A stretch of 64,000 nucleotides of DNA from a virus. The DNA lies in IMG/VR virus record IMGVR_UViG_3300045988_110853, positions 68,077 to 132,076 of that record; one strand, given 5' to 3'. The notes under the pieces are model-generated. The model saw nothing but the letters and a program-made list of their open reading frames with translations, did no database searches and was not told the DNA's origin. The position numbers were made by a program, and so were the translations under genes. Position 1 is the first letter of the stretch; each line of letters opens with the position of its first letter. Below, piece by piece: positions 1 through 51,639 of this stretch.

Positions 1-30
1 GTGTTTTTTTCAAAATTTTTGCGGTCTTTC

Positions 31-174
31 TCAATATACGAAAAATAAGAAATTAAGCAAAATTAGCACAGGAATAGCGTAGACGATATTAAAAGAGTCC
101 CACCCGAGACTTTCACAGGCGTAAGCAAAAATAAAGCCAAAAACGAGGCCGAAAATGCCGATTAAAATAATCAT
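31..174 (-). CDS. small membrane protein (about 47 aa, two hydrophobic helices)
   Basis: Start ATG overlaps the TGA stop of the upstream gene (ATGA coupling). An AGAGGA Shine-Dalgarno sits 6 nt upstream. The coordinates are trimmed from the track ORF 31..216. Confidence 0.4.
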   Translation of the reverse strand: MIILIGIFGLVFGFIFAYACESLGWDSFNIVYAIPVLILLNFLFFVY

Positions 175-434
175 TCTAAATCCTCTATATGACCATAGTG
201 TTCGTTGATATGCCATTCAAGATAGGCATTAGTCGCAATCTGAATTTCCCTATCCAGCCAATCATAAAACTCTTCGGGGTCGCAGGTCGCGCGTTCATCA
301 ATAATATCAATAAGAGAAACGCGATGAGCGAGAAATTCCGAAATATCAAGAGAATCCATAGAAGAAAGAAGTTCTTCCACACATTCTCCGCGAGTAGGGA
401 ACTTTTCAGTAGAAAAATCGTGAGTGTAATACAT
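171..434 (-). CDS. hypothetical early protein (87 aa)
   Basis: Intact ORF with an AAAGGGGA ribosome-binding site 7 nt upstream. A promoter (TAGACA-N17-TATACT) lies at 466-494. The stop codon is TGA. Confidence 0.6.
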   Translation of the reverse strand: MYYTHDFSTEKFPTRGECVEELLSSMDSLDISEFLAHRVSLIDIIDERATCDPEEFYDWLDREIQIATNAYLEWHINEHYGHIEDLE

Positions 435-465
435 TGTTTATATCCCCTTTCTTTACTGTAAACAT

Positions 466-494
466 AGTATAGCAGATTATTACATTTTTGTCTA
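466..494 (-). promoter_or_regulatory. sigma-A-type promoter TAGACA-N17-TATACT
   Basis: The hexamers were read directly. It lies upstream of gene 171-434. Confidence 0.5.
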
Positions 495-552
495 TTGGTA
501 AAATACACAAATTTAGGAAAATAATTAGTTGTATTTTTAGCTAAATTTCCTA

Positions 553-581
553 TTGACAAATTGCTGGGACGGTGGTATAAT
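553..581 (+). promoter_or_regulatory. plus-strand consensus promoter TTGACA-N17-TATAAT, convergent with the early genes
   Basis: Read directly. It is followed by a GC hairpin (589-617) and then terminator 661-696. Confidence 0.5.
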
Positions 582-591
582 GGAAATTCCG

Positions 592-700
592 GCCGTGGCA
601 GGCGCAAACGGCCGGCCATTTTATCACACTATTGGATTTTTGTCAATAGGTAAAATGACTAAAAAAATGAGGTGAATTTTCACCTCATTTTTATTTGTGA
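592..700 (+). ncRNA. candidate antisense small RNA of about 105 nt (promoter 553-581, GC hairpin, terminator)
   Basis: A promoter, a structured GC stem-loop and a rho-independent terminator lie on the plus strand with no plus-strand ORF. Confidence 0.25.
661..696. terminator. hairpin GAGGTGA-attttc-ACCTC flanked by an A-run and a T-run (bidirectional terminator)
   Basis: Read directly. Confidence 0.6.
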
Positions 701-870
701 TAACTGGTAGTGATGGTTTTGAAAATCTGATAAATGCTTTCATCTTCCAGTAGCTTCTGGATAAAAGCATCAGCTTCTTCCTCGGAATCAAAACTAACCC
801 GATTGTCATAATACTGATCCCAAGGATTCTTACCGCTGTATTCGACACTGAATGTCTTTTCAATTTCCAT
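691..870 (-). CDS. hypothetical acidic protein (59 aa; MEIEKTFSVEYSGKNPWDQYYDNR...)
   Basis: Hand-translated; it falls below the ORF-track length cut-off. A GAGGGGAG ribosome-binding site precedes it and the stop is TAA. The overlapping track ORF 624..863 looks non-protein-like and runs across a terminator. Confidence 0.5.
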   Translation of the reverse strand: MEIEKTFSVEYSGKNPWDQYYDNRVSFDSEEEADAFIQKLLEDESIYQIFKTITTSYHK

Positions 871-872
871 TT

Positions 873-1064
873 TTAGTTCTCCCCTCTCATTGACCGCTCA
901 TAATTCTCAATCATGCAACGAACCATCATACCGCCGACGGAATAAGAAGGGGCAGGCTTGCCATTCACATAGTCCTTGATGATGATTTTTTCATCTTCGT
1001 TTAACTGGTTAATGCCCTCTTTGATAGCGTTAATGAGTTCCCAATTGTAAGAAGTTTCAAGCAT
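873..1064 (-). CDS. hypothetical protein (63 aa)
   Basis: Start assigned at MLETSYN with an AAAGGAAAGGA ribosome-binding site. The promoter TTGACA-N17-TATAAT at 1095-1123 is embedded in a hairpin. Confidence 0.55.
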   Translation of the reverse strand: MLETSYNWELINAIKEGINQLNEDEKIIIKDYVNGKPAPSYSVGGMMVRCMIENYERSMRGEN

Positions 1065-1094
1065 TTTTATCAATTCCTTTCCTTTGATGGTTTT

Positions 1095-1123
1095 ATTATA
1101 GCACAAGGGGCTTATTTTGTCAA
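1095..1123 (-). promoter_or_regulatory. consensus promoter TTGACA-N17-TATAAT embedded in hairpin 1101-1134
   Basis: The -35 lies in the hairpin loop and the -10 immediately 3' of the stem. Confidence 0.6.
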
Positions 1124-1142
1124 GCCCCTTGTGCTATTTTTT

Positions 1143-1595
1143 TTAGCGCTCAGATACGATACTCAGATAGCGGTTAATCATATCCATTTCGCAACCCATG
1201 TCCCGCCAATCGCAAACCACATACCCAATGAGTTCGCCGTCTGTGGTAATCGGATAAACGCCGTAAGTGCTATTATAAGCAAATGGCTTTCTTTCATCTT
1301 CCCAATCAATAGGAGTGTAGGCCGGGAAGTTTTCCATACCCCGCAGTTTCACGGTAGTGTCATAGATTGCAATAGGACGCAGACCGGAATTTGATGCCAT
1401 TGTAATAGCGGTTCGCATAGCATCTTCGCTCAGCGAGCCAAGCACCGAATACCTCTTGAAGCAAACGCAGTCGTTATCTTCAATGAAGATTTCCAGCGGG
1501 TCGCCCTCGCGGATTTTCAGAGTGCGCCGAATCTCTTTCGGGATAACCACACGTCCAAGGTCATCAATTCTGCGAACAATACCAGTAGCTTTCAT
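1143..1595 (-). CDS. AbrB/SpoVT-family (swapped-hairpin, MazE-fold) DNA-binding regulator with an extra C-terminal domain of about 100 aa
   Basis: The N-terminus MKATGIVRRIDDLGRVVIPKEIRRTLKIREGDPLEIF closely resembles the Bacillus AbrB/SpoVT N-domain (MKSTGIVRKVDELGRVVIPIELRRTL...). The gene has its own promoter at 1626-1654 and an AAAGGGG ribosome-binding site. Confidence 0.75.
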   Translation of the reverse strand: MKATGIVRRIDDLGRVVIPKEIRRTLKIREGDPLEIFIEDNDCVCFKRYSVLGSLSEDAMRTAITMASNSGLRPIAIYDTTVKLRGMENFPAYTPIDWEDERKPFAYNSTYGVYPITTDGELIGYVVCDWRDMGCEMDMINRYLSIVSER

Positions 1596-1625
1596 TTTAA
1601 TTTTCCCCTTTCATTTGATACATTA

Positions 1626-1654
1626 AGTATAGCAGAACAAAAGACTTTTGTCAA
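1626..1654 (-). promoter_or_regulatory. promoter TTGACA-N17-TATACT for the AbrB-like gene
   Basis: Read directly. Confidence 0.6.
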
Positions 1655-1659
1655 GCCTT

Positions 1660-2133
1660 TTATTCAAGATTTTTGCTTTCCGCGACAAAATATTTTGCTT
1701 CATACTGATTTGCGATAGCCTTGACTTTTGCGCTTTCCTTTTGGGTCGCGCAGTAAAAATTGAAAAGCGTATGTTTATCGCTCAATTCAATGTAAGAGTG
1801 TGGGACGTCATGTAAATCAAAATCAATGGTATTAGTGTATTTTGTCGGGACAGTCAGCTCGACTTTCCAAAGTTTATCCTTGCGCGCCTTTTCCTCAATC
1901 CACTTGACAAGGTAAACGCCCACGAAATTACAAACGGCAGTAATAGCCATTTTCAACCAAATAGGCATACCGTCCGCGGAAGTCAGCACAATTACATAGG
2001 AATAAAAACCGTATGTAATAGCATTGATGAAAGATGCGCTAAACTTTCCGCCCTTGACAGTCAAAATGCTTTTGATAGTTGACAGAATCACATTCACCGC
2101 CGTGCAAAGCGCGAACAGAAGAATTGTATTCAT
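1660..2133 (-). CDS. membrane protein (N-terminal TM helices plus a soluble C-terminus), 157 aa
   Basis: Intact ORF with hydrophobic N-terminal segments. The stop is TAA. Its start overlaps the stop of the next gene (ATGA). Confidence 0.55.
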   Translation of the reverse strand: MNTILLFALCTAVNVILSTIKSILTVKGGKFSASFINAITYGFYSYVIVLTSADGMPIWLKMAITAVCNFVGVYLVKWIEEKARKDKLWKVELTVPTKYTNTIDFDLHDVPHSYIELSDKHTLFNFYCATQKESAKVKAIANQYEAKYFVAESKNLE

Positions 2134-2369
2134 TCAATCACCTCAATATCGCAGTAAATACAGTCGGTAATATCGACGTATTCTTCAAAACTCATTCGCT
2201 TATCATCGCGGTGTGTAAAGTCAATGTAAGCATTTTCACCGTGGAGATTGTTTTCTTCATTGTAGGCGTGAGTGGCGTAGTCAAAAGCCTTGATAGCATC
2301 GGCTTCATTATAGACTACAATTTCCTTGACTTCGGGAGCATCATACCAAATAGTATATTTCTTTTTCAT
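2130..2369 (-). CDS. hypothetical protein (79 aa)
   Basis: Start at MKKKYTIWYD with an AAAGGAAAGGG ribosome-binding site. The track start is upstream at a GTG. The stop is TGA. Confidence 0.55.
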   Translation of the reverse strand: MKKKYTIWYDAPEVKEIVVYNEADAIKAFDYATHAYNEENNLHGENAYIDFTHRDDKRMSFEEYVDITDCIYCDIEVIE

Positions 2370-2442
2370 TATTATCACCCTTTCCTTTTTCTATTATAAT
2401 AATATCATATTATAATAGAAATGTCAATAGAGAGTTTTTAAT

Positions 2443-2601
2443 TTACTCTTTTAATTTTTCTAATAGGTCATCAGCACATTCATAGCTGATGCTCCGGCGG
2501 TCGCACTCGTTGGACAAAGGACAACAAGCGCAGTCATTAAAGGTTTCCGTCCAAGAGCGCAACCAGTCAATCAGGCGTAGAGTATCAACTTCTTCATACA
2601 T
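2443..2601 (-). CDS. cysteine-rich small protein (52 aa; ...CACCPLSNECDRR...)
   Basis: Hand-translated. An AAAGGAG ribosome-binding site lies 8 nt upstream. It overlaps the stop of the upstream gene and ends in TAA. Confidence 0.45.
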   Translation of the reverse strand: MYEEVDTLRLIDWLRSWTETFNDCACCPLSNECDRRSISYECADDLLEKLKE

Positions 2602-2938
2602 TGTTTTCAGTCTCCTTTACTCGGACAAAAAAGACCTTGTTATAGATTTTTGTTGCTTTAAGGTCAATCCAAAAATACACATTTCCGCATACTCGATAGA
2701 TTTTACAAGTTTCTCCGCTAACCTTTTTGACTTCCTCAAACTTCTCGGGCGTAGTAGGGTGGAAAATTGTCAGTTTGAGAAACATCGAATAGAAAGTTAA
2801 AGGAACGAACCCGATAATAATAGCAATCCACGCGAGAATGTCAGTTAAGGTATTTCTCCATTCACACCATTCATCAGTAATTGTAGCGAACGCAATACCC
2901 ACACAAAACGCGAGAATCAACCAATACCAAGCTACCAT
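2594..2938 (-). CDS. membrane protein (114 aa)
   Basis: Intact ORF with hydrophobic N-terminal helices and an AAAGGGGGGGA ribosome-binding site. Confidence 0.55.
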   Translation of the reverse strand: MVAWYWLILAFCVGIAFATITDEWCEWRNTLTDILAWIAIIIGFVPLTFYSMFLKLTIFHPTTPEKFEEVKKVSGETCKIYRVCGNVYFWIDLKATKIYNKVFFVRVKETENNV

Positions 2939-2989
2939 TGTTTTATCCCCCCTTTATTTGATGTATACATTTTACCAGATTATGGGAAT

Positions 2990-3166
2990 TTTGTCTATTG
3001 GCAGAATAGCCAAAAATCCGCTCGAAAATTTGTTGAATCTACATCTTGACAAAAACTCGGCGCGCCACAGTCGTTCGCGCGCCGGCCATTTTATCACATT
3101 TAAGGAACTTTGTCAATAGTGAAATTAAACAAAAAAAATCTCCCAAATTTGGGAGATTTTTCATTT
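2990..3166. repeat. intergenic cassette copy B (stem CGGCGCGCC..GGCGCGCCG, covariant with copy A)
   Basis: The stem-loop lies at 3050-3078 and is followed by ggccattttatcac as in copy A. Confidence 0.6.
3131..3166. terminator. hairpin TCTCCCAAATTTGGGAGA with flanking A/T runs
   Basis: Read directly. Confidence 0.6.
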
Positions 3167-3332
3167 AATTTTCTACTGCTTCAAGGTCGGCGAGAATGGG
3201 GATAAGCTTATCCTCAATGAGCGAAACGCGGTTAATCATTTCTTGGTCGGGGGTAGGAAGCTTCTGAATCCCATAACGCGCCATCATACAGACCTTTTCG
3301 ACAACTTCGCTAAGCTTTTCCTTATTTTCCAT
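3165..3332 (-). CDS. hypothetical protein (55 aa)
   Basis: Start at MENKEKL with a TAAGGAGA ribosome-binding site. The stop is TAA and a terminator follows at 3131-3166. Confidence 0.5.
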   Translation of the reverse strand: MENKEKLSEVVEKVCMMARYGIQKLPTPDQEMINRVSLIEDKLIPILADLEAVEN

Positions 3333-3441
3333 TTTTCTATTCTCCTTAAAATAAATTTTTTGGAAAGGGTGGCAGTTGATAGGCTCAACTGCCAAAGCCA
3401 TAGGAAAGGGGGAGAGAAACGCGAACAAATGTTCGGTTTTA

Positions 3442-3681
3442 TCAGGGAATAATCAGTTCCGCATCGTAGACAGGCCGAACCATACAGGGCGCGCCAAAGC
3501 AGTCGAGATTGTAAGTGTCCAAATTGAGAGCGTTCCATTCTTCTGCGCCGGTATTTTCATCAACCACTGACGCAGTTTTGATGTAATAGACGTTTCCGGA
3601 AGCGGGGTCTTGAAAAATCATACCTTCGGGGAGGTCTTCAAATGCAACCATTTTGTTGCTATGCTTAACAGTAATTTTCAT
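3442..3681 (-). CDS. hypothetical protein (79 aa)
   Basis: An AAGGAG ribosome-binding site lies 8 nt upstream of the ATG (MKITVK...). The stop is TGA. Confidence 0.55.
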   Translation of the reverse strand: MKITVKHSNKMVAFEDLPEGMIFQDPASGNVYYIKTASVVDENTGAEEWNALNLDTYNLDCFGAPCMVRPVYDAELIIP

Positions 3682-3686
3682 TTCAT

Positions 3687-4040
3687 TCACTCCTTATTAT
3701 AAAAGCGGTAAGCCCATTCAACGATTTCGTGGCTTGTAGTAGTCCATTCCTTTTTGGGGCTGTCAAACTTTTCCGCGTATTTTTTGACGTAGTCGTTGTA
3801 TTCCATGCGTGCGGTATCGTATGCTCCAATAGCTACAAGCAAGGACTGTTTTGCTTTTTCAGCATCAGAGACGGCTTTCTTGCGGTCTGCGCCCTCGGGG
3901 TAAAGGTCGATTACGCCTAAACGAGTAATGACTTGTGTTGTTTTTTCATACACGCGGTCGCGCTCTTCCCAAACCTCATAGAGCAGTTCGTCCGCGCGAT
4001 TCTCATAGGGATTGAATGGCTTTTTCTTCTTACCGAACAT
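3687..4040 (-). CDS. hypothetical protein (117 aa, MFGKKKKPFNPYENRADELLYEVWEERDRV...)
   Basis: The C-terminal 117 aa of the track ORF 3687..4328 are protein-like. The upstream part runs through intergenic sequence and the stop of the next gene. Confidence 0.5.
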   Translation of the reverse strand: MFGKKKKPFNPYENRADELLYEVWEERDRVYEKTTQVITRLGVIDLYPEGADRKKAVSDAEKAKQSLLVAIGAYDTARMEYNDYVKKYAEKFDSPKKEWTTTSHEIVEWAYRFYNKE

Positions 4041-4368
4041 TTTTCTTTTTCTCCTTTTCTTTCTTGTTCCAAATTCTGTCGAAGAACGCATTTGCGAGAA
4101 CACGCTTGTAAAGGTTATCAGGCATAGGGCGTTCGCCGTGCTTATTTCTCCAAATCGCGGTGATTTTATCAATATCCGCGATATAGGCGGTAATGAGTGT
4201 GCCGTCCGTAGCACTACGAACAAGAAGAACGCCTGTTGTAGTGATAGTGTAGAGGACATCTTCCTCAACGCTGTCGATATATGGCTCACCAATACCGATA
4301 TTGTCATAGATGAAGAACAAGCGGTCAATGCGGTCTTGCGTGGCGTGTTTTGACATTCTGATAAGCAT
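4030..4368 (-). CDS. hypothetical protein (112 aa)
   Basis: Start at MLIRMSK with an AGAAAGAGG ribosome-binding site. A promoter lies at 4406-4434. Confidence 0.55.
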   Translation of the reverse strand: MLIRMSKHATQDRIDRLFFIYDNIGIGEPYIDSVEEDVLYTITTTGVLLVRSATDGTLITAYIADIDKITAIWRNKHGERPMPDNLYKRVLANAFFDRIWNKKEKEKKKNVR

Positions 4369-4405
4369 TTGATTTACCTCTTTCTTTCTCTCTTGGATTG
4401 ATTGT

Positions 4406-4434
4406 ATTATACCATATAGGGAGGGGCTTGTCAA
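4406..4434 (-). promoter_or_regulatory. promoter TTGACA-N17-TATAAT within hairpin GGGAGGGGCTTGTCAAGCCCCT
   Basis: Read directly. Confidence 0.6.
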
Positions 4435-4440
4435 GCCCCT

Positions 4441-4590
4441 TTAATACAATTGTTCCCCATCGTGGTAGCGCTCATATTCCGCTTCAAGGAAGTCGAGAAT
4501 AGTTTCAAAGTCGTCTGCGTCCGCGGGGTCTGCAAAGGTCTTTTCAAGAACTTCGTTAGTGTGTCTATTGTAAACTCGAACCATATCCAT
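4441..4590 (-). CDS. hypothetical acidic protein (49 aa, MDMVRVYNRHTNEVLEKTFADPADADDFETILDFLEAEYERYHDGEQLY)
   Basis: Hand-translated with an AGAAAGAGGTAAG ribosome-binding site. The stop is TAA. Confidence 0.45.
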   Translation of the reverse strand: MDMVRVYNRHTNEVLEKTFADPADADDFETILDFLEAEYERYHDGEQLY

Positions 4591-4659
4591 TTTACTTACC
4601 TCTTTCTTGATTGTATATGTATTATATCATGCGAAAGGGCTTTTGTCAAGCCCTTTTTA

Positions 4660-4866
4660 TCAGAAATGATAATTTCTGATGATGACGTCGAACTTGGGAG
4701 CATATACGGTTTTCCACTGTTCTTCAAGGGTCTTATCATTCGTGCGATATGCTTCCCACGAGACTGCGCCATAGGCGTTGTGCTTGAAAAGCTCGGCATC
4801 ACTGGGCATTTGCTCGGCATAGAGAAGCTGGGTCTTGATAAAAGAATGAATGTTGTAGTTAGTCAT
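4660..4866 (-). CDS. hypothetical protein (68 aa)
   Basis: Start at MTNYNIHS. It has a conserved leader with a GAGGT ribosome-binding site. A promoter TAGACA-N17-TATACT lies at 4906-4934. Confidence 0.5.
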   Translation of the reverse strand: MTNYNIHSFIKTQLLYAEQMPSDAELFKHNAYGAVSWEAYRTNDKTLEEQWKTVYAPKFDVIIRNYHF

Positions 4867-4905
4867 TTTATTTACCTCATCTTTCTGTTCCCTTGGAACA
4901 ATTAT

Positions 4906-4934
4906 AGTATAGCAAATGCTTAGGCATTTGTCTA
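4906..4934 (-). promoter_or_regulatory. promoter TAGACA-N17-TATACT
   Basis: It lies upstream of the conserved leader of gene 4660-4866. Confidence 0.5.
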
Positions 4935-4944
4935 TTGACGGATC

Positions 4945-4974
4945 GCACAAAATTGGGAAAAATAATTTGTGCAA
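4945..4974. promoter_or_regulatory. inverted repeat GCACAAAATT-N9-AATTTGTGCAA (operator-like)
   Basis: Read directly. Confidence 0.4.
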
Positions 4975-4992
4975 ATTTTCGCAACTTTTTGC

Positions 4993-5021
4993 TTGACAAA
5001 TTGCTGGCCCTGTGATATACT
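4993..5021 (+). promoter_or_regulatory. plus-strand promoter TTGACA-N17-TATACT, convergent with the early genes
   Basis: Same architecture as 553-581. A GC hairpin lies at 5029-5055 and a terminator at 5109-5140. Confidence 0.5.
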
Positions 5022-5029
5022 GAAAATTC

Positions 5030-5140
5030 CGGCCGCAGCGTGCGTTGGCGGCCGGCCGAATTATACCACATTGAGATGGTTTTGTCAATAGTCAAATGAA
5101 ACAAAAATTTCAGGCGAGATTTGGTTATCTCGCCTGAAAA
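5030..5140 (+). ncRNA. candidate antisense small RNA of about 105 nt, a paralogue of the 592-700 element
   Basis: Same promoter/hairpin/terminator arrangement as at 592-700. Confidence 0.25.
5109..5140. terminator. hairpin CAGGCGAGAT..ATCTCGCCTG plus AAAA
   Basis: Read directly. Confidence 0.6.
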
Positions 5141-5347
5141 TTATTCGTCCCAAATAGCTCCCGCAATCCAAAAGTATTCATAGCGGAGTTTTGACTGAAT
5201 CGCAAATAAAGAATCTGCGATTTCTCCACCAATTTCCCGGTCATCTGCGACTGAAAGTGTTTGGCTTTCTCGCGCGATTCTTTGCGCCAGCTTTTCAAGG
5301 GCTTCCGCCTGTTCTTTCAAAGCCTGCGGAATAGTTTTTTCATTCAT
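5141..5347 (-). CDS. hypothetical protein (68 aa)
   Basis: Start at MNEKTIP with a GGAAAGGGG ribosome-binding site. The stop is TAA. Confidence 0.5.
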   Translation of the reverse strand: MNEKTIPQALKEQAEALEKLAQRIARESQTLSVADDREIGGEIADSLFAIQSKLRYEYFWIAGAIWDE

Positions 5348-5349
5348 AA

Positions 5350-5694
5350 TCAATTCCCCTTTCCGAAATTAGAAGTTAATTCTAATGTATGTCCGCACTC
5401 GTCGCAATACCAATAGTAATAAACCGTGCCGTATTTACCATGAGAAGCATTTACAAATTTCATTTCATTTCCGCAGATAGAACAATAGCCATCATTCCAC
5501 GCTTTTTTGTCGGCATTATGTTCTGCGATTATCGCGCCCGTCATACCATAGCCAAGAGCGCACGAAATGAGAATACCGACTAACAATCTCACTATTGGGT
5601 GGTGTTTATCCAGATTACACCAGCAGATAAGGCAAACAAATAGTGCCATAATTGCACTAAGGATTCCACCAATAATTAAGAATTCTGCGCTCAT
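5350..5694 (-). CDS. membrane protein with a C-terminal CxxC...CxxC zinc ribbon (114 aa)
   Basis: Start at MSAEFLIIGG with a GGAAAGGGGAAATAAAAATG ribosome-binding site. The sequence contains ...YCSICGNEM...YCDECGH.... Confidence 0.55.
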   Translation of the reverse strand: MSAEFLIIGGILSAIMALFVCLICWCNLDKHHPIVRLLVGILISCALGYGMTGAIIAEHNADKKAWNDGYCSICGNEMKFVNASHGKYGTVYYYWYCDECGHTLELTSNFGKGN

Positions 5695-5696
5695 TT

Positions 5697-5768
5697 TTAT
5701 TTCCCCTTTCCGCATTTAACGCATTGAGCGTGTGTTCCGCACTTTCCATCGCAATAAGGACATTCCAT
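5697..5768 (-). CDS. possible 23-aa zinc-ribbon microprotein (MECPYCDGKCGTHAQCVKCGKGK)
   Basis: Hand-translated with an AAAGGAAAGGGG ribosome-binding site. A promoter lies at 5799-5827. Its stop overlaps the ribosome-binding site of the next gene. Confidence 0.3.
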   Translation of the reverse strand: MECPYCDGKCGTHAQCVKCGKGK

Positions 5769-5798
5769 TGATTTATTCCCCTTTCCTTTGATACATTA

Positions 5799-5827
5799 AG
5801 TATAGCAGAAAAGGGGCTATTTGTCAA
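5799..5827 (-). promoter_or_regulatory. promoter TTGACA-N17-TATACT within a hairpin
   Basis: Read directly. Confidence 0.55.
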
Positions 5828-5846
5828 GCCCCTTTTCTCATTTTTT

Positions 5847-6209
5847 TTATTTTTCTTTTCTGATGGAATAGTAGGCTCTATTCCCTTTCTGCGTGCGGGT
5901 CAACTTTCTGTCAATCCAACAAAGATAACCGCAATACCACGAAATAGTGGAGCAGGAATATTCTTTGCCAGTTTCACGGTAAAGAATAAACTGAATCTCA
6001 GTAGGACGCAGGGGCTTTTCTGCCTTTGAGAGAACATCGAGCATCATGTTTTTCATCATGGTGTTGCGGATTTCCTGTTTCAGCTTCTGCGCTTCCTTGG
6101 CTTCCTGATACTGTAAGCAAGCCCTCTCCGCGTGAATTTTGTCAATCCCCTCGAAAGTGCCATTGTCAAGAAATTTCTTCAAAAGACTATAAGTTTCACC
6201 GTTAATCAT
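5847..6209 (-). CDS. hypothetical protein, possibly a winged-helix DNA-binding regulator (120 aa)
   Basis: Intact ORF with an AAAGGGGAAC ribosome-binding site. A promoter lies at 6241-6269. The C-terminus ...KGNRAYYSI... resembles a wHTH wing. The call is tentative. Confidence 0.5.
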   Translation of the reverse strand: MINGETYSLLKKFLDNGTFEGIDKIHAERACLQYQEAKEAQKLKQEIRNTMMKNMMLDVLSKAEKPLRPTEIQFILYRETGKEYSCSTISWYCGYLCWIDRKLTRTQKGNRAYYSIRKEK

Positions 6210-6240
6210 TTTGTGTTCCCCTTTCTTTTACTATACTTGT

Positions 6241-6269
6241 ATTATATCATCTACTTCTGGATTTGTCAA
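6241..6269 (-). promoter_or_regulatory. promoter TTGACA-N17-TATAAT
   Basis: Read directly. Confidence 0.6.
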
Positions 6270-6309
6270 GGGCTTTTTGGAAAAAGAGGGAAAAATTTTC
6301 CCTCTTTAT

Positions 6310-6582
6310 TTATCCCCAAAAAACCGAAAGAACGCCGTCAATGTAGCTGGTTTTATAACCATAATTCTGCATGATAGTTTTGCAAGCCTGCTTGACGCCC
6401 TTTTCCTTTAATGAAGCAAGAGAACATTCATAAAGTGTTTCTCCCGTTCCTGCCACTCGCTCAATTTCTGGCATGATGTGGTCTTCGATGAACGCCCGCG
6501 CAAGGGCATTATTTTTAGCTTGAATTTCTTTGCGGACTTCTTCGGCTTTGCGCGTCATTTCATAAGCGTATTTAATTTCCAT
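6310..6582 (-). CDS. hypothetical protein (90 aa)
   Basis: Intact ORF with an AAAGGGAG ribosome-binding site. A promoter lies at 6613-6641. Confidence 0.55.
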   Translation of the reverse strand: MEIKYAYEMTRKAEEVRKEIQAKNNALARAFIEDHIMPEIERVAGTGETLYECSLASLKEKGVKQACKTIMQNYGYKTSYIDGVLSVFWG

Positions 6583-6612
6583 TTTGTTTTCTCCCTTTCT
6601 CTTGATGCTTTT

Positions 6613-6641
6613 ATTATAGCATATAGGGCTTGTTTTGTCAA
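6613..6641 (-). promoter_or_regulatory. promoter TTGACA-N17-TATAAT embedded in hairpin 6617-6650
   Basis: Read directly. Confidence 0.6.
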
Positions 6642-6659
6642 GCCCTATATGCTATTTTT

Positions 6660-6968
6660 TTAGCAGTAGGCGAGATTCCCGCGCGCCCAGCCATATACGC
6701 TGATTTGATTGCACGCTTTGCCAATTTCGAGCGCCTGCTTCTTGGTCTGGACTCTCTTGGACTTGTCGATATAGTAGATGCCATTCGCGAACCAAACACC
6801 GCAGTTTCCGCCATATTCCTTGACCGCGTTAATGGCTTCGCGTGCGGTCTTACATTCCACGCCATCGGTAGCAACCTGCCAGCCGGACTTGTAATTGACT
6901 TTCTTGCCATATTTAAGGGTCAGACCGTCGTTTTCAACGAGCTTACGAATGGAACGAATGTTAATCAT
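6660..6968 (-). CDS. hypothetical phage protein (102 aa)
   Basis: Intact ORF with a GGAAAGGGAAAAC ribosome-binding site. The stop is TAA. The antisense track ORF 6630..7016 is rejected. Confidence 0.55.
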   Translation of the reverse strand: MINIRSIRKLVENDGLTLKYGKKVNYKSGWQVATDGVECKTAREAINAVKEYGGNCGVWFANGIYYIDKSKRVQTKKQALEIGKACNQISVYGWARGNLAYC

Positions 6969-7059
6969 AATGTTTTCCCTTTCCGGTTTGTTTGGGTTTT
7001 CCTTCCCTTACTGTGATTATAGTATAGCACCGATTCGGGATTTTGTCTATTGGCAGAAT

Positions 7060-7089
7060 ACACAAACTTTCACCATAAAAATTGTGCAA
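7060..7089. promoter_or_regulatory. inverted repeat ACACAAA-N14-ATTGTGCAA (operator-like)
   Basis: Read directly. Confidence 0.35.
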
Positions 7090-7165
7090 ATGGTCTATTG
7101 ACAGCAAATTCCGGCCGCGCCTGGCGTGCACGGCCGGCCGAATGAATATGCAAAATGGAGCGTAT

Positions 7166-7208
7166 AAAAATTCAGCGGATTTTTATGCAATCCGCTGAAT
7201 TTTCATTT
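7166..7208. terminator. hairpin ATTCAGCGGAT..ATCCGCTGAAT with flanking A/T runs
   Basis: Read directly. Confidence 0.6.
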
Positions 7209-7215
7209 CAAATTT

Positions 7216-7455
7216 TTAACCATCAACATAAATGATAAGAATATCGCCCTTAGCTTTCAAACCAGTGACAGGCAATCCCAGCACCCATTCTTCACTTGCA
7301 CCCAAAAAATTGCCATTCAAAGTCATATGACCCTTGCGGTCTTTGAGATAACGGCCATCAGTGTTTTCATTTATCACTTCGACGCCGTTCCCCTCATAGA
7401 ACATCAACGCACCTTTTACCGTGCCAATCACATTTTTAACCATGCTTAAAGTCAT
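7216..7455 (-). CDS. hypothetical protein (79 aa)
   Basis: Start at MTLSMVKN. Its leader of about 45 nt is identical to that of gene 4660-4866. A promoter TTGACT-N17-TATACT lies at 7486-7514. Confidence 0.5.
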   Translation of the reverse strand: MTLSMVKNVIGTVKGALMFYEGNGVEVINENTDGRYLKDRKGHMTLNGNFLGASEEWVLGLPVTGLKAKGDILIIYVDG

Positions 7456-7485
7456 TTTGTTTACCTCATCTTTCTGTTCCCCTTG

Positions 7486-7514
7486 GAACAATTATAGTAT
7501 AGCATAGGGTATAG
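7486..7514 (-). promoter_or_regulatory. promoter TTGACT-N17-TATACT
   Basis: Read directly. Confidence 0.55.
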
Positions 7515-7532
7515 CAAAAGTCAATAGTCAAA

Positions 7533-7575
7533 ATGGTAAAAAGAATCGGCAGGATTTTGTGTATCCTGCCGATTC
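7533..7575. terminator. hairpin GAATCGGCAGGAT..ATCCTGCCGATTC plus TTTT
   Basis: Read directly. Confidence 0.6.
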
Positions 7576-7577
7576 TT

Positions 7578-7772
7578 TTAGTCTTCCCAACTCTCGATGA
7601 CTTCGCCGGTCATAGCGTCGATAATGTCAACCGAAAGAACATTATCTGCGTCGGCGAACTTCTGACCGAGGGCGTATGCGTTTTCCTGTCCCGCGACAGA
7701 CACTTCATAGCGATAGCGGTTGTTATCACCAGCCTTGTAGTTGTAGTAGTTAACAGAAACGATAAATAACAT
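7578..7772 (-). CDS. hypothetical protein (64 aa)
   Basis: An AAAGGGGAAC ribosome-binding site precedes it. A promoter lies at 7803-7830. The stop is TAA. Confidence 0.5.
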   Translation of the reverse strand: MLFIVSVNYYNYKAGDNNRYRYEVSVAGQENAYALGQKFADADNVLSVDIIDAMTGEVIESWED

Positions 7773-7802
7773 TTTTTTGTTCCCCTTTCTTTTTATACTC
7801 TT

Positions 7803-7830
7803 ATTATAGCACGGTTTTAGGATTTGTCAA
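7803..7830 (-). promoter_or_regulatory. promoter TTGACA-N16-TATAAT
   Basis: Read directly. Confidence 0.55.
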
Positions 7831-7854
7831 TAGTTTTTTTGAAAAAAGTTTGAA

Positions 7855-7892
7855 AAAAAATAAGGGCGTTTCCGCCCTTATTTTTCATAAAC
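7855..7892. terminator. hairpin AAGGGCG-TTTC-CGCCCTT with flanking A/T runs
   Basis: Read directly. Confidence 0.6.
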
Positions 7893-8135
7893 GATAATGT
7901 TGTTGCCTAACTTTTCAACGCGAGAATCTTCACAAAAGTGATAGGTAAAATCCGCGTAAAGATGTTTGAGAAATTCGCGTCTCCATTCGCGGGACTTCGG
8001 CTCTAATTCAAAAAGAATGTAAAGCGTTTCCTCTAATCGGTCGAGAAAGTTTTCAGTGTCCGCGATGTTGAACTTGCCCGCGAGCTTTGGCGTGGGGTTA
8101 TAAGCGCTAATAGTGAGAATGTTGTAAGTTGTCAT
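7878..8135 (-). CDS. hypothetical protein (85 aa)
   Basis: An AAAGGAGA ribosome-binding site precedes it. A promoter lies at 8166-8194. Confidence 0.5.
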   Translation of the reverse strand: MTTYNILTISAYNPTPKLAGKFNIADTENFLDRLEETLYILFELEPKSREWRREFLKHLYADFTYHFCEDSRVEKLGNNIIVYEK

Positions 8136-8165
8136 GGAAAAATCTCCTTTTCATTTGATGTTTTT

Positions 8166-8194
8166 ATTATACACGATAGTATGGAACTTGTCAA
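8166..8194 (-). promoter_or_regulatory. promoter TTGACA-N17-TATAAT
   Basis: Read directly. Confidence 0.6.
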
Positions 8195-8199
8195 TACTT

Positions 8200-8240
8200 A
8201 AAATAGAAAAAAGAGAAGTTTTTTCAACTTCTCTTTTTCA
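8200..8240. terminator. hairpin AGAGAAGTT..AACTTCTCT plus TTTT
   Basis: Read directly. Confidence 0.55.
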
Positions 8241-8328
8241 GCTTCTTTTCTGCCCATTCAATCAGCGCGCCCGCGGTGATTGTGCCAACGTAAATGAAAA
8301 GTAAAACTAAACCATCATGCAAACTCAT
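8224..8328 (-). CDS. possible 34-aa membrane microprotein (MSLHDGLVLLFIYVGTITAGALIEWAEKKLKKRS)
   Basis: A GGAGG ribosome-binding site lies 9 nt upstream. It has a single hydrophobic helix. A terminator follows. Confidence 0.35.
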   Translation of the reverse strand: MSLHDGLVLLFIYVGTITAGALIEWAEKKLKKRS

Positions 8329-8329
8329 T

Positions 8330-8458
8330 TTAATATTCCTCCACATACTCTGTAAAGACAAGCTCCCAGTCCGGGCCGAGATCCGGAGTTTTGCAGTATA
8401 ATGACTGTCGAATGTCATGCTCATTAGTGATTTTGTTGATAAACTCGAATTCATACAT
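8330..8458 (-). CDS. hypothetical small protein (42 aa, MYEFEFINKITNEHDIRQSLYCKTPDLGPDWELVFTEYVEEY)
   Basis: Hand-translated with a GAAAAGGAG ribosome-binding site. A promoter lies at 8490-8518. The track ORF 8224..8454 in another frame is probably an artefact. Confidence 0.4.
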   Translation of the reverse strand: MYEFEFINKITNEHDIRQSLYCKTPDLGPDWELVFTEYVEEY

Positions 8459-8489
8459 TGTTGTTATCTCCTTTTCTTATTGTATCTAC

Positions 8490-8518
8490 ATTATAGCAGA
8501 CAACAGGGCATTTGTCAA
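8490..8518 (-). promoter_or_regulatory. promoter TTGACA-N17-TATAAT
   Basis: Read directly. Confidence 0.6.
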
Positions 8519-8524
8519 TACCAT

Positions 8525-8562
8525 TTATAAAAAAATGTACGAGGTTTAATCCTCGTACATTT
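8525..8562. terminator. hairpin TGTACGAGG..CCTCGTACA with flanking A/T runs
   Basis: Read directly. Confidence 0.55.
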
Positions 8563-8842
8563 CCATTAACGATTTGATTTTTTCAATCGCATTTTCAATT
8601 TCTTCTACATAGTCTGCTTGTTCTTCGCTTGCGCGCATTGCCTGTTCATATGCGTCATAGATGGCTTCGCACTGTTCACGGGTATATTCTTCTTCTGGTG
8701 CGTGCTCCATGGCGACGACTGCCGCCCACGCGAGCGTTTCCGCGTCATCGAGGTTATCAGCCTTTTCCGTGGCAGTGGTAAGTTCGTGTTCGAGGCGCGT
8801 TTTTTCGAGCGAGAGGGTCTTGAGAAATTCGGTATTAGTCAT
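8546..8842 (-). CDS. acidic hypothetical protein (98 aa)
   Basis: An AAAAGGAGA ribosome-binding site precedes it. A promoter lies at 8875-8902 and a terminator at about 8520-8560. Confidence 0.55.
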   Translation of the reverse strand: MTNTEFLKTLSLEKTRLEHELTTATEKADNLDDAETLAWAAVVAMEHAPEEEYTREQCEAIYDAYEQAMRASEEQADYVEEIENAIEKIKSLMEMYED

Positions 8843-8874
8843 TGTGGTGTATCTCCTTTTCTTTTGATACCTCT

Positions 8875-8902
8875 ATTATAGCACTTCTGGACTGAATGTC
8901 AA
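8875..8902 (-). promoter_or_regulatory. promoter TTGACA-N16-TATAAT
   Basis: Read directly. Confidence 0.55.
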
Positions 8903-9180
8903 TAGGTTTTTGAAAAAAATATTTATTCATCAGGGCTGTATAAATATTCATGTATAAATATTCATTTTCGGGTGCATAAAGGCGACTGGCATAATGCACA
9001 AATTCGTTTGAAAATTTTTGTGCAACTTGCCTATTGCAAAACTCGGCGCGCTGCGGCCCACAGCGCGCCGGCCAAATGTATATGTATGATTATTCATGTA
9101 TATTCATTGCATATTCATTGTATATTTATTCATACATAATATGCAAAAATAGAGAGAGACTTAATAAGCCTCTCTCCACA
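8893..9180. repeat. intergenic cassette copy E, with flanking TATTCAT heptamer repeats
   Basis: The stem-loop lies at 9044-9073. Seven TATTCAT copies lie at 8925-8970 and 9090-9135. Confidence 0.6.
8996..9025. promoter_or_regulatory. inverted repeat GCACAAA-N14-TTTGTGCAA (operator-like)
   Basis: Read directly. Confidence 0.4.
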
Positions 9181-9526: not shown

Positions 9527-9548
9527 TTTGTTTTACCTCTTTCTTACT

Positions 9549-9692: not shown

Positions 9693-9722
9693 GGCATATG
9701 CTCCCCTCTTTGAGCGAGTGGG

Positions 9723-10196: not shown

Positions 10197-10277
10197 TGTG
10201 TAGCCCTTCCCGCGCTTTTTGCGCTATCGTGTTATATGTAGGTATGTTCCCCCTGTGGGGAGTGAGGGCTTGCGCCC

Positions 10278-10571
10278 TCACTTTGCAATCTTTGCGGTAA
10301 CGGAAGCCGCACGCGGCGCGCCGACTTTCTTGTACTTATCAAAGCACTCGGCATAGAGTTTCGGCGCCTTGTTGCGGAACATCACCGTGTCGAGCGTTTC
10401 AGTAGCCTTGCCGCCCTTGCCAACAATAACAGTAAACTTATTGTAAGTAAAGGTAACGCTTTCGCCGTTAGCTTCCTCGCGGGCTTCTGCCTTGAGTAAT
10501 TCTAATTGTTCCTTGAGCACGTCTATCTGCGCGGAAAGCTCACACATCTTTTTAATTTTGTTGTTCGTCAT
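10278..10571 (-). CDS. hypothetical protein with an N-terminal coiled coil (97 aa)
   Basis: Start at MTNNKIKK with an AAGAGGA ribosome-binding site. The stop is TGA. A hairpin at 10261-10282 overlaps the stop. Confidence 0.55.
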   Translation of the reverse strand: MTNNKIKKMCELSAQIDVLKEQLELLKAEAREEANGESVTFTYNKFTVIVGKGGKATETLDTVMFRNKAPKLYAECFDKYKKVGAPRAASVTAKIAK

Positions 10572-11936: not shown

Positions 11937-11960
11937 ATAAATATAGACTGGAGGTAAAAA

Positions 11961-51615: not shown

Positions 51616-51639
51616 TTTTAGGATAGAAAGGAGTAAATT

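What the first reader, a model, noticed from the sequence alone, without database searches (positions are those of the whole stretch)
1095..1134. Promoters built into terminator hairpins
In at least five places a perfect stem-loop carries the -35 hexamer in its loop and the -10 hexamer immediately 3' of the stem on the coding strand. The sites are 1101-1134, 4418-4444, 5805-5830, 6617-6650 and 10261-10282 (terminator only). The stem-loop on the opposite strand is followed by a T-run. One compact element may therefore terminate plus-strand read-through and antisense transcription while launching the next minus-strand gene. Hairpin extrusion could also occlude the promoter, giving each early gene a supercoiling-sensitive or temperature-sensitive switch.
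Basis: inference. Interest (0 to 1): 0.55.

Follow-up and report, generated by a model that had tools for sequence, protein, structure and literature searches.

The report
Phage promoters nested inside terminator hairpins
In the early-gene block of an uncultivated gut phage, several very strong promoters sit inside conserved hairpins that look like terminators for the opposite strand; this compact promoter/terminator cassette is real and widespread, but it resembles cassettes already described in T4-like phages and in bacteria.

Summary
Window 1-10.7 kb is the early arm of a roughly 190 kb TAG-recoded Bacillota phage. It carries about 30 small minus-strand genes and about 20 near-consensus sigma-A promoters. 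In six promoters (P1123, P1654, P4434, P4649, P5827, P6641) a GGGGC..GCCCC-cored hairpin encloses the -35. Five have perfect stems of 8-17 bp, against 0.24 expected by chance.

The hairpins are selected. The same geometry occurs in 15-17% of promoters in about 20 related phage contigs, with compensatory changes. The core motif with a -10 recurs in over 100 unrelated viral contigs and in cultured Enterococcus phages.

In this family the U-tract lies on the strand opposite the genes. Three window sites score as strong plus-strand terminators and none as a clear sense terminator. Almost half of family hairpins score as terminators in neither direction.

The cassettes are also recombination points. 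Gene g4441 was lost twice, by crossovers within the -10 or the ribosome-binding site.

The closest known elements are PeSLs of T4-like phages and bacterial "promoter-coupled terminators". The supercoiling or temperature switch is not. I rate this a new member of a known kind, of moderate interest.

The parts
1095..1123 (-). Promoter P1123 (TTGACA-N17-TGcTATAAT, 12/12). It drives genes 873-1064 and 691-870.
1098..1137 (.). Hairpin enclosing the -35 of P1123. It has a 16 bp perfect stem and an 8-nt loop, and its last 3 nt overlap the -10.
   Evidence: RNA dG -29 kcal/mol on both strands, z -7.7 and -9.5. DNA dG -18.5.
1138..1144 (+). T7 run after the hairpin on the plus strand. It reads as an A-run plus the TAA stop of gene 1143-1595 on the gene strand.
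   Evidence: Plus-strand terminator score d=+45 against -19 on the minus strand.
1626..1654 (-). Promoter P1654 (11/12). It drives the AbrB/MazE-like gene 1143-1595.
1635..1665 (-). Degenerate hairpin around the -35 of P1654. It is held together by G.U pairs, so it folds only as minus-strand RNA.
   Evidence: dG -16.9 (z -4.4) on the minus strand against -4.6 (z +0.4) on the plus strand. Orthologues vary through G:T states.
4406..4434 (-). Promoter P4434 (12/12). It drives genes 4030-4368, 3687-4040, 3442-3681 and 3165-3332.
4422..4440 (.). Short hairpin AGGGGCTT-GTC-AAGCCCCT (plus strand) around the -35 of P4434.
   Evidence: dG about -10 to -15, z only -1.2 to -1.7. d=-8 on the plus strand and -35 on the minus strand.
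4621..4649 (-). Promoter P4649 (12/12). It drives gene 4441-4590.
4633..4657 (.). Hairpin AAAGGGCTT-loop-AAGCCCTTT around the -35 of P4649.
   Evidence: dG -15.7, z -3.3 and -4.3. d=-2 on the plus strand and -20 on the minus strand.
5799..5827 (-). Promoter P5827 (11/12). It drives genes 5697-5768, 5350-5694 and 5141-5347.
5807..5848 (.). Hairpin 5807-5838 (12 bp stem, 8-nt loop) plus CA and T8 at 5841-5848 on the plus strand. The 3' arm TTTTCT gives a weak U-tract on the gene strand as well.
   Evidence: dG -20 and -22, z -5.2 and -7.3. d=+51 on the plus strand and +2 on the minus strand.
6613..6641 (-). Promoter P6641 (12/12). It drives gene 6310-6582.
6616..6661 (.). Hairpin 6616-6655 (17 bp stem, 6-nt loop, last 3 nt overlapping the -10) plus T6 at 6656-6661 on the plus strand.
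   Evidence: dG -28 and -31.5, z -7.6 and -10.6. d=+37 on the plus strand and -23 on the minus strand. Compensatory changes against P1123 and orthologues.
10261..10282 (.). Hairpin without a promoter. It overlaps the TGA stop of gene 10278-10571.
   Evidence: dG -22 and -27. d=+2 on the plus strand and -26 on the minus strand. No promoter in the scans.
553..581 (+). Conserved antisense promoter (12/12, with TG). It is a source of plus-strand transcription inside the early block.
   Evidence: Conserved in L001, L004 and L009. Its first plus-strand terminator is 663-692, about 80 nt downstream.
4993..5021 (+). Second antisense promoter (11/12, with TG). The next strong plus-strand terminator downstream is the P5827 hairpin.

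Best explanation
These are composite promoter/terminator cassettes in the early, hyperplastic arm of a large TAG-recoded Bacillota phage.

**Anatomy.** Each cassette runs from the stop codon of one small gene to the start codon of the next. In order it holds an A-tract, a GC-cored hairpin whose loop is the -35 hexamer, an extended -10, and a conserved 30-nt leader with a strong ribosome-binding site.

**Promoter role.** Host sigma-A RNA polymerase starts the next gene at the promoter.

**Terminator role.** The hairpin's U-tract is encoded on the opposite strand. The element is therefore predicted to stop polymerases travelling antisense through the early genes. Such polymerases could come from the conserved internal plus-strand promoters, from spurious starts, or from late read-through. 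This shields the upstream gene. Sense polymerases coming from the upstream gene mostly read through, so the cassette acts as an internal promoter inside a longer transcription unit.

**Recombination role.** The repeated cassettes also serve as homologous recombination sites that add, remove and swap small early genes.

**Shown here:** the sequence anatomy, selection for the pairing, the strand asymmetry of the U-tract, and recombination junctions inside the cassettes.

**Inferred:** actual initiation, actual termination, and the source of the antisense polymerases.
For: **The promoters look real.**
- About 20 minus-strand promoters score 10-12 of 12 with a TG extension. They lie upstream of a ribosome-binding site and ATG.
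- In a collection-wide scan the -35 to -10 spacing was left free over 7-23 nt. It was exactly 17 nt in 102 of 116 hits.

**The hairpins are non-random and precisely placed.**
- The window has 5 of 24 promoters with a stem of at least 7 bp, against 0.24 expected.
- In relatives, 16.6% of 549 promoters have such a stem, against 2.2% of random positions.
- Hairpin centres fall into discrete classes: on the -35, 30-40 nt upstream, or 40-45 nt downstream. Almost none lie between.

**The pairing is selected.**
- Seven of 16 pairs show changes on both sides. That is 26 cells, against 8.6 +/- 2.4 in shuffles (0 of 500 shuffles reach it). 81% of cells are paired, against 32-51% when the partner column is slid.

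**The U-tract is on the antisense strand.**
- Among 61 family hairpins, 69% have at least 6 of 9 A just 5' of the GC core. Only 10% have at least 6 of 9 T just 3' of it.
- The A-tract profile is locked to the base of the stem, not to the -35.
- Terminator scores in the window: +45, +51 and +37 on the plus strand. On the minus strand they are -19, +2 and -23.
- Across 57 family hairpins: 22 antisense-only, 9 both directions, 0 sense-only.

**Antisense promoters exist and are conserved**.

**Recombination occurs inside the cassettes.**
- g4441 is missing in L004, L005 and L018 with the crossover at the -10. It is missing in L010 with the crossover at the ribosome-binding site.
- The block [hairpin-promoter + g873/g691 + terminator] is present or absent among relatives.
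- Gene content is mosaic across relatives.
Against: - 26 of 57 family hairpins, including the window's P4434 and P4649, score as terminators in neither direction.
- Transcripts from the conserved antisense promoters usually meet a separate bidirectional terminator after about 80 nt. The need for further plus-strand terminators is therefore not demonstrated.
- The P1654 hairpin folds only as sense RNA. G:T mismatches, which form wobble pairs in sense RNA, are shared by several orthologues, whereas A:C mismatches are singletons.
- Perfect stems of 16-17 bp are longer than a terminator needs.
- The upstream A-tract could also act as a promoter UP element.
- The terminator score was calibrated on E. 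coli.
- No RNA end data were available.
Confidence: 0.55

Rival explanations
1. The hairpin works on the sense transcript. It would form at the 3' end of the upstream cistron in read-through mRNA and act in one of three ways. It could be an attenuator helped by RNA polymerase sitting on the very strong overlapping promoter, as in PeSLs and promoter-coupled terminators. It could be a barrier to 3' exonucleases. Or it could be an RNase III-type processing site that separates early messages.
For: - Every early intergenic region has exactly one hairpin, either separate or embedded.
- The P1654 hairpin is kept only in minus-strand RNA, through G.U pairs.
- About half of the embedded hairpins have no U-tract on either side.
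- In other phages, including cultured Enterococcus Saphexavirus, the same GGGCTTGACA..AAGCCC hairpin is followed by a T-tract in the promoter spacer. That makes it a sense terminator with d=+15.5.
- In bacteria, a polymerase bound at the coupled promoter raises termination at the overlapping terminator.
- The PeSL stem-loop terminated transcription in a lacZ assay.
Against: - In this family no embedded hairpin scores as a sense-only terminator. The 3' flank is T-rich in only 10%.
- The A-tract locked to the stem base has no role in this model.
- The G:T against A:C counts are small: 14 against 9 cells, and about 7 against 6 independent events by my own grouping of orthologues. The wider set gives 3 against 1.
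Confidence: 0.22
2. The hairpin has no transcriptional role of its own. It would persist because it is part of a repeated cassette that spreads by recombination. The inverted repeat might itself promote exchange, as proposed for PeSL mini-circles.
For: - The cassettes are paralogous repeats of 50-90 nt.
- Recombination junctions fall inside them.
- Gene content is mosaic among relatives.
- In RB49 the crossover mapped to the loop of the PeSL stem-loop.
Against: - Compensatory changes in the outer stem, and different outer stems in unrelated contigs, show selection for pairing rather than simple inheritance.
- The observed crossovers lie at the -10 and at the ribosome-binding site, not in the hairpin.
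Confidence: 0.1
3. The inverted repeat would extrude as a cruciform in supercoiled DNA and hide the -35 and part of the -10. That would make early promoters sensitive to supercoiling or temperature.
For: The two longest repeats are perfect 16-17 bp stems with 6-8 nt spacers and reach into the -10. As DNA they fold at about -18 kcal/mol. Such stems are longer than terminators need.
Against: - Orthologues of the same promoters have 11-13 bp stems. Many family members have only 5-9 bp, too short to extrude.
- Conserved G:T mismatches weaken the DNA hairpin.
- The stem-locked A-tract is unexplained.
- In the bacterial analogue the coupling did not depend on supercoiling.
Confidence: 0.05
4. The palindrome is an operator for a dimeric regulator, for example the phage AbrB/MazE-like protein or a shut-off factor. 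The regulator would bind over the -35.
For: The conserved core GGGGCTT / AAGCCCC flanks the -35. An AbrB/MazE-like regulator gene lies in the block. Terminator palindromes can double as transcription-factor sites, as with LexA at yobI/ruvA.
Against: - The spacing between half-sites varies from 3 to 9 nt, and up to 16 nt with mismatches.
- The outer stems differ in sequence yet stay complementary.
- The same core occurs in many unrelated viral contigs from different environments.
Confidence: 0.05

Closest known systems
PeSLs (promoter-early stem-loops) of T4-like phages (Arbiol et al. 2010, PMC2839356; Comeau et al. 2014, PMC4122927)
   Same: - A near-consensus sigma-70-type early promoter combined with a G(n)-loop-C(n) or A3-4G3-loop-C3T3-4 stem-loop.
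- The stem-loop can overlap the -35 or -10 box.
- An AT-rich tract lies upstream.
[quoted passage not shown]
- The cassettes cluster in hyperplastic regions of small orphan genes.
- Gene indels and swaps between close relatives have crossovers inside the cassettes (searches compared).
   Different: - The host phage is a Bacillota phage with SPbeta/Enterococcus-type terminase and TAG recoding, not a T4-like myovirus.
- The stem-loop position here is almost always centred on the -35. PeSLs have five positional subclasses.
- The predicted terminator direction here is antisense or bidirectional. The PeSL stem-loop was proposed, and in one case tested, as a terminator for upstream sense transcription.
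- Mini-circles could not be tested.
Promoter-coupled terminators of bacteria (Fletcher et al., bioRxiv 2026, 10.64898/2026.08.19.745784)
   Same: - The terminator stem-loop coincides with the -35 hexamer of the next promoter.
- The element lies between tandem genes and saves intergenic space.
- DNA elements serve two purposes. The class was also found in B. subtilis.
- The sense form, with the T-tract in the spacer just upstream of the -10, occurs in many viral contigs carrying the same core motif and in Enterococcus Saphexavirus phages.
   Different: In the window and its relatives the spacer holds the 3' arm of a longer stem instead of a T-tract. The U-tract is on the other strand. The defining same-strand pairing of a termination site about 10 bp upstream of a start site is therefore not predicted here.
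Bidirectional intrinsic terminators (established knowledge, for example Ju et al. 2019; also mentioned)
   Same: A GC-rich hairpin flanked by an A-tract and a T-tract. P5827 and 9 of 57 family elements score in both directions. The separate intergenic hairpins of this block are mostly bidirectional.
   Different: Classical bidirectional terminators lie between convergent genes. These lie between tandem genes and contain a promoter.
Morons of lambdoid phages (promoter + gene + terminator units; discussed in PMC2839356)
   Same: The block [hairpin-promoter + g691 (+ g873) + terminator] is present or absent as a unit among relatives.
   Different: Morons are thought to insert by illegitimate recombination, without conserved flanks. 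Here the junctions lie in repeated cassettes.
Hairpin promoters of phage N4 virion RNA polymerase (established knowledge)
   Same: A hairpin lies at an early phage promoter, and extrusion is a conceivable mechanism.
   Different: The promoters here are textbook sigma-A -35/-10 promoters. The hairpin encloses the -35 rather than forming the recognition element. The giant proteins in the window are a tape measure protein and a tail protein, not a polymerase.

Membership tests
PeSL-type composite promoter/stem-loop cassette | Strong sigma-70-type early promoter (TTGACA-N17-TATAAT or close) | tested here: met
   Matches of 11-12 of 12 with a TG extension at all six sites. Hexamers are invariant in the alignment of orthologues.
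PeSL-type composite promoter/stem-loop cassette | Stable G-rich/C-rich stem-loop adjacent to or overlapping the promoter boxes | tested here: met
   GGGGC..GCCCC cores. dG -15 to -31 kcal/mol, with z down to -10.6. The geometry is centred on the -35.
PeSL-type composite promoter/stem-loop cassette | [quoted passage not shown] | tested here: met
   Repeat families D1, D3 and D6 of 49-90 nt. Stop codon, A-run, hairpin, -10, leader and ATG seen in order. A-tract profile.
PeSL-type composite promoter/stem-loop cassette | Concentrated in a hyperplastic region of small, mostly orphan genes | tested here: met
   31 genes of 22-157 aa, of which only one of the ten scanned has a Pfam match above the curated cut-off. 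Presence/absence among relatives is mosaic. All GGCTTGACA sites lie in 1-10.7 kb.
PeSL-type composite promoter/stem-loop cassette | Gene indels or replacements between close relatives with crossovers inside the cassettes | tested here: met
   g4441 was lost with the junction at the -10 (L004, L005, L018) or at the ribosome-binding site (L010). Cassette indel downstream of the AbrB-like gene.
PeSL-type composite promoter/stem-loop cassette | The stem-loop terminates or attenuates transcription arriving from upstream on the same strand | tested here: not met
   Tested in silico only. Minus-strand terminator scores are -19, -35, -20, +2 and -23. Zero of 57 family elements are sense-only. An experiment is needed.
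PeSL-type composite promoter/stem-loop cassette | Formation of encapsidated mini-circles by recombination between neighbouring cassettes | not testable with these tools
   Needs inverse PCR on phage DNA.
PeSL-type composite promoter/stem-loop cassette | Carried by T4-like myoviruses. This is the only lineage in which PeSLs were described. | tested here: not met
   The terminase and portal are related to Enterococcus, Geobacillus and SPbeta-like phages.
Promoter-coupled terminator (Fletcher et al. 2026) | The terminator stem-loop coincides with or abuts the -35 of a downstream same-strand promoter between tandem genes | tested here: met
Promoter-coupled terminator (Fletcher et al. 2026) | [quoted passage not shown] | tested here: not met
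   The 3' flank is T-rich in only 10% of family elements. Within the window only P5827 comes close, with TTTTCTGC. The feature is met in other viral contigs and in Saphexavirus. RNA ends are not testable here.
Intrinsic terminator acting on the plus (antisense) strand | GC-rich hairpin followed immediately by a U-tract, with a positive d'Aubenton-Carafa score | tested here: met
   Met for 1098-1137 (+45), 5807-5838 (+51, with the U-tract offset by 2 nt) and 6616-6655 (+37). Borderline for 4633-4657 (-2), 4422-4440 (-8) and 10261-10282 (+2).
Intrinsic terminator acting on the plus (antisense) strand | RNA 3' ends at the U-tract in vivo or in vitro | not testable with these tools
   No transcriptome for this uncultivated phage.
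N4-type hairpin promoter | Promoter recognised as an extruded hairpin by a phage virion RNA polymerase rather than by host sigma factor | tested here: not met
   The -35 and -10 are consensus sigma-A elements with 17-nt spacing. The giant ORFs in the window are a tape measure protein (PF10145) and a tail protein. The rest of the genome was not examined.

The most novel reading that the evidence does not exclude
Antisense-facing promoter-embedded terminators may be a distinct, conserved insulator class in Bacillota phages. They would work together with the conserved face-to-face promoter and GC-hairpin modules (window 440-700, 4885-5145 and three further copies). Those modules would fire antisense RNAs across early operons, and each RNA would be stopped exactly at the operon's own promoter. 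This would give a built-in device for early-gene shut-off and insulation. The unusually long stems that reach into the -10 would add structure-dependent control of the promoter.
Probability: 0.12. Interest if true: 0.6.

Novelty: new member of a known kind. Interest (0 to 1): 0.36.

Why it matters
Composite promoter/terminator cassettes were known from T4-like phages of Gram-negative bacteria, and very recently from bacterial chromosomes. This finding shows they also organise the early, gene-shuffling arm of uncultivated stop-codon-recoded Bacillota phages.

One specific design, GGGC-TTGACA-..-GCCC followed by TGnTATAAT, recurs in over a hundred viral contigs and in cultured Enterococcus phages.

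Three practical consequences follow:
- It gives ready-made, very compact insulated expression parts for Gram-positive synthetic biology.
- It explains how small early genes are exchanged between related phages.
- It points to a cultured system (Saphexavirus) where the sense and antisense forms could be tested.

It does not reveal a new principle.

Tried and rejected
- **Megablast of the early block against GenBank phages:** no match.
- **Rfam on the whole window:** no family reached its gathering score.
- **tRNA search for a suppressor tRNA:** none in the window.
- **G:U against A:C asymmetry, to decide which strand's RNA folds:** 14 against 9 cells in the family. By my own grouping of orthologues that is about 7 against 6 independent events. 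The wider set gives 3 against 1. Too few to decide.
- **Are the embedded hairpins the first terminators met by the conserved antisense promoters?** Only 12 of 68 are. Most antisense transcripts should stop about 80 nt downstream at a separate bidirectional terminator.
- **N4-like virion polymerase idea:** the giant late ORFs are a tape measure protein and a tail protein.
- **Operator hypothesis:** rejected because half-site spacing varies and the outer stems covary.
- **UP-element-only reading of the A-run:** weakened because the A-tract tracks the base of the stem, not the -35. A dual role remains possible.
- **Transcriptome papers on Kayvirus and Pseudomonas phages:** neither describes this architecture.

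Full report
**What the window is**

Positions 1-10.7 kb have 41% G+C. They carry about 31 small genes (22-157 aa) on the minus strand, all readable in the standard code. They end in TAA (21 genes) or TGA (10 genes), never TAG.

From about 12 kb onward the DNA has about 30% G+C and is coded on the plus strand. Long ORFs appear only if TAG is read through. Fourteen ORFs contain 216 in-frame TAG codons, and the longest ORF is 2981 aa.

These ORFs include a large terminase, a portal and a tape measure protein. The terminase is 47% identical to those of Enterococcus phages VRE9_4, H1 and EF1, and 46% to Geobacillus E3. It is more distantly related to SPbeta-like phages. An AbrB/MazE-type regulator is encoded at 1143-1595 on the minus strand.

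The window is therefore the junction between the early and late arms of an uncultivated, TAG-recoded Bacillota phage. Relatives in IMG/VR are contigs of 100-197 kb.

**Checking the observation**

The promoter scan finds about 20 minus-strand sites of the form TTGACA-N17-TGnTATAAT in the early block. They score 10-12 of 12, and twelve are perfect. Each lies 25-35 nt upstream of a strong ribosome-binding site and an ATG.

| Site | Stem | Plus-strand tail | Promoter |
|---|---|---|---|
| 1098-1137 | 16 bp | T7 | P1123 |
| 4422-4440 | 8 bp | weak | P4434 |
| 5807-5838 | 12 bp | CA + T8 | P5827 |
| 6616-6655 | 17 bp | T6 | P6641 |
| 10261-10282 | 9 bp | TTTGCAATCTTTG | none |

In all of them the TT of the -35 pairs with AA of the spacer, and GAC(A..) forms the loop. 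The 3' arm ends between 10 nt before the -10 and 3 nt into it.

Five of 24 promoters have a perfect stem of at least 7 bp around the -35. When promoter flanks are shuffled the expectation is 0.24, and the maximum in 2000 shuffles is 3. All six exact GGCTTGACA sites in the 64 kb window are these promoters.

**Is the hairpin selected?**

The AbrB-like protein retrieved about 20 related phage loci. In them, 16.6% of 549 consensus promoters have a perfect stem of at least 7 bp around the -35. Only 2.2% of random positions do.

Hairpins near promoters fall into three sharp classes:
- centred on the -35 ("class A"),
- 30-40 nt upstream, as separate terminators ("class B"),
- 40-45 nt downstream, as GC-rich hairpins at the 5' end of the transcript.

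Orthologous and paralogous class A elements keep the hexamers invariant while their outer stems change in a compensatory way. Examples are CACAAGGGGC/GCCCCTTGTG against CATATAGGGC/GCCCTATATG, ATATAGGGC against ATAGAGGGC, and GGGGCTT against GGGACTT.

On a gapless alignment of 22 sequences, 7 of 16 pairs show changes on both sides. That is 26 cells, against 8.6 +/- 2.4 in shuffles, and no shuffle in 500 reached it. 81% of cells are paired, against 32-51% when the partner column is slid.

**How widespread is it?**

The pattern allowed a -35 to -10 spacing of 7-23 nt. The spacing was exactly 17 nt in 102 of 116 distinct contexts. This is an internal control showing that these are real promoters.

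Outer stems differ between contigs yet remain complementary.

The same element occurs 3-5 times per genome in cultured Enterococcus Saphexavirus phages. One example is caaaGGGGCTTGACAAAAGCCCttttttgtgTTATAAT, upstream of an HmuI-like endonuclease gene in ON113173.

**Which way does it terminate?**

In the window family the flank just 5' of the GC core is A-rich: 69% of 61 elements have at least 6 of 9 A there. The 3' flank is T-rich in only 10%. The A-tract is locked to the base of the stem, whatever the stem length, rather than to the -35.

I applied the d'Aubenton-Carafa discriminant, where a positive score means terminator-like.

| Element | Plus strand | Gene (minus) strand |
|---|---|---|
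| P1123 | +45 | -19 |
| P5827 | +51 | +2 |
| P6641 | +37 | -23 |
| P4649 | -2 | -20 |
| P4434 | -8 | -35 |
| 10261-10282 | +2 | -26 |

Across 57 distinct family elements, 22 are antisense-only, 9 score in both directions, none is sense-only and 26 score in neither.

The separate class B hairpins behave differently. 67% have a T-rich 3' flank on the gene strand and 39% have both flanks. Their window scores are +10 to +43 on the minus strand, and about half are also positive on the plus strand.

In other phages with the same core motif, the T-tract lies in the promoter spacer, which makes a sense terminator. This holds for 20 of 187 elements and for the Saphexavirus example, with d=+15.5.

**Sources of antisense transcription**

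Two strong plus-strand promoters lie inside the block, at 553-581 (12/12) and 4993-5021 (11/12). The first is conserved in relatives.

In the family, most transcripts from such promoters should end about 80 nt downstream at a class B bidirectional terminator. Class A elements are the first strong plus-strand terminator for only 12 of 68 antisense promoters. For P4993, the next strong plus-strand terminator is the P5827 hairpin.

The need for the class A plus-strand terminators is therefore plausible but not demonstrated.

**Signals pointing to the sense strand**

The P1654 element folds only as minus-strand RNA: -16.9 kcal/mol (z -4.4), against -4.6 (z +0.4) on the plus strand. Its orthologues vary through four different G:T states. 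G:T mismatches are shared among orthologues, while A:C mismatches are singletons.

The counts are too small to decide. Almost half of the embedded hairpins lack a U-tract on either side. A role in the sense mRNA, as attenuator, 3' stabiliser or processing site, therefore remains a serious rival.

**Recombination at the cassettes**

Gene content in the early arm is mosaic among close relatives.
- L001 lacks the whole block [A-run, P1123 hairpin-promoter, g873, g691, terminator]. L004 and L009 have it without g873.
- g4441 lies between the hairpin promoters P4649 and P4434. It is missing in L004, L005 and L018 with a chimeric promoter whose junction is at the -10. It is missing in L010 with the junction at the ribosome-binding site.

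These are independent homologous exchanges between repeated cassettes.

**Comparison with what is known**

PeSLs of T4-like phages are sigma-70-type early promoters combined with G(n)-loop-C(n) stem-loops. The stem-loops can overlap the -35 or -10. PeSLs span from stop codon to start codon, cluster in hyperplastic regions and mediate modular shuffling. Every sequence-level feature is met here. Three things differ: the phage lineage, the nearly fixed position of the stem on the -35, and the predicted direction of termination.

A 2026 preprint describes "promoter-coupled terminators" in bacteria, including B. subtilis. In these the stem-loop coincides with the -35 and the T-tract sits just upstream of the -10. 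Promoter-bound polymerase enhances termination through proximity, not supercoiling. The sense-type elements in other viral contigs match that description. The window's elements do not carry the same-strand T-tract.

**Verdict**

The composite promoter/terminator reading is supported in silico. The specific twist is that the terminator faces the antisense strand in three of the five sites and is weak in two.

The hairpin-extrusion switch is unsupported. Orthologues have short stems, G:T mismatches are conserved, and the A-tract is locked to the stem.

This is a new member of a known kind. It may be the first description of this class in Bacillota phages, since I found no paper describing it there. 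Interest is moderate.

Noticed in passing
window 440-700, 2945-3170, 4885-5145, 7000-7215, 8985-9185: Five paralogous regulatory modules lie in the early block. On the gene strand each reads, in order: a bidirectional terminator; a promoter CTATTGACAA-N16-TGnTAtAAT; an invariant GGCCGGC at or near +1 that opens a 7-10 bp all-GC hairpin with a U-rich tail; an inverted TTGTCAATAG; and a second promoter, TAGACA-N17-TATACT.

In modules 1 and 3 the inverted TTGTCAATAG is the -35 of a full antisense promoter facing the first one. GCCGGCC occurs at only these five sites, giving 8 matches against 0.73 expected. The stems covary in relatives. The modules may be a promoter-proximal attenuator, an antitermination site or a face-to-face promoter switch. 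A plus-strand RNA of about 100 nt (588 to about 697) is predicted.
   Followed up: partly
window 1-10700 versus 12000-64000: There is a sharp split in composition and genetic code. The early block has 41% G+C and is compatible with the standard code. Its genes stop with TAA (21) or TGA (10), never TAG. The late arm has about 30% G+C, with 216 in-frame TAG codons in 14 ORFs. No suppressor tRNA lies in the window.
   Followed up: partly
window 4350-4710; L004:7009, L005:8740, L010:7366, L018:7009: Gene g4441 was lost at least twice by recombination between neighbouring promoter cassettes. The junctions lie at the -10 hexamer or at the ribosome-binding site.
   Followed up: yes
L199 (ON113173.1 12396-12433) and about 89 Enterococcus phage records: Cultured Saphexavirus phages carry the same GGGGCTTGACAAAAGCCC hairpin-promoter 3-5 times per genome. 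Here the T-tract lies in the promoter spacer, giving the sense-terminator form. This is a tractable system for experiments.
   Followed up: partly
window 8930-9140: Clusters of short direct repeats (TGTATAAATATTCATGTATA and variants, ATTCAT units) flank GC-hairpin module 5. They look like iterons, so this may be a replication origin or a protein-binding array.
   Followed up: no
window 10600-11950: This is the boundary between the two arms. It holds G-rich motifs (GGGGCGGG at about 10700 and 10790), a very AT-rich stretch, two low-GC minus-strand ORFs (11000-11428 and 11373-11612), and divergent consensus promoters at 11825 (minus strand) and 11908 (plus strand).
   Followed up: no
window 1143-1595 (-): The early gene with an AbrB/MazE (SpoVT-type) DNA-binding domain at its N-terminus is the most conserved early gene among relatives, at 80-89% identity. 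It may be the regulator of the CTATTGACAA-type promoters.
   Followed up: no
window 51637-59346 (+): A 2569-aa late protein has a weak BspA-type leucine-rich-repeat match near its C-terminus. It is probably a host-recognition tail protein.
   Followed up: no
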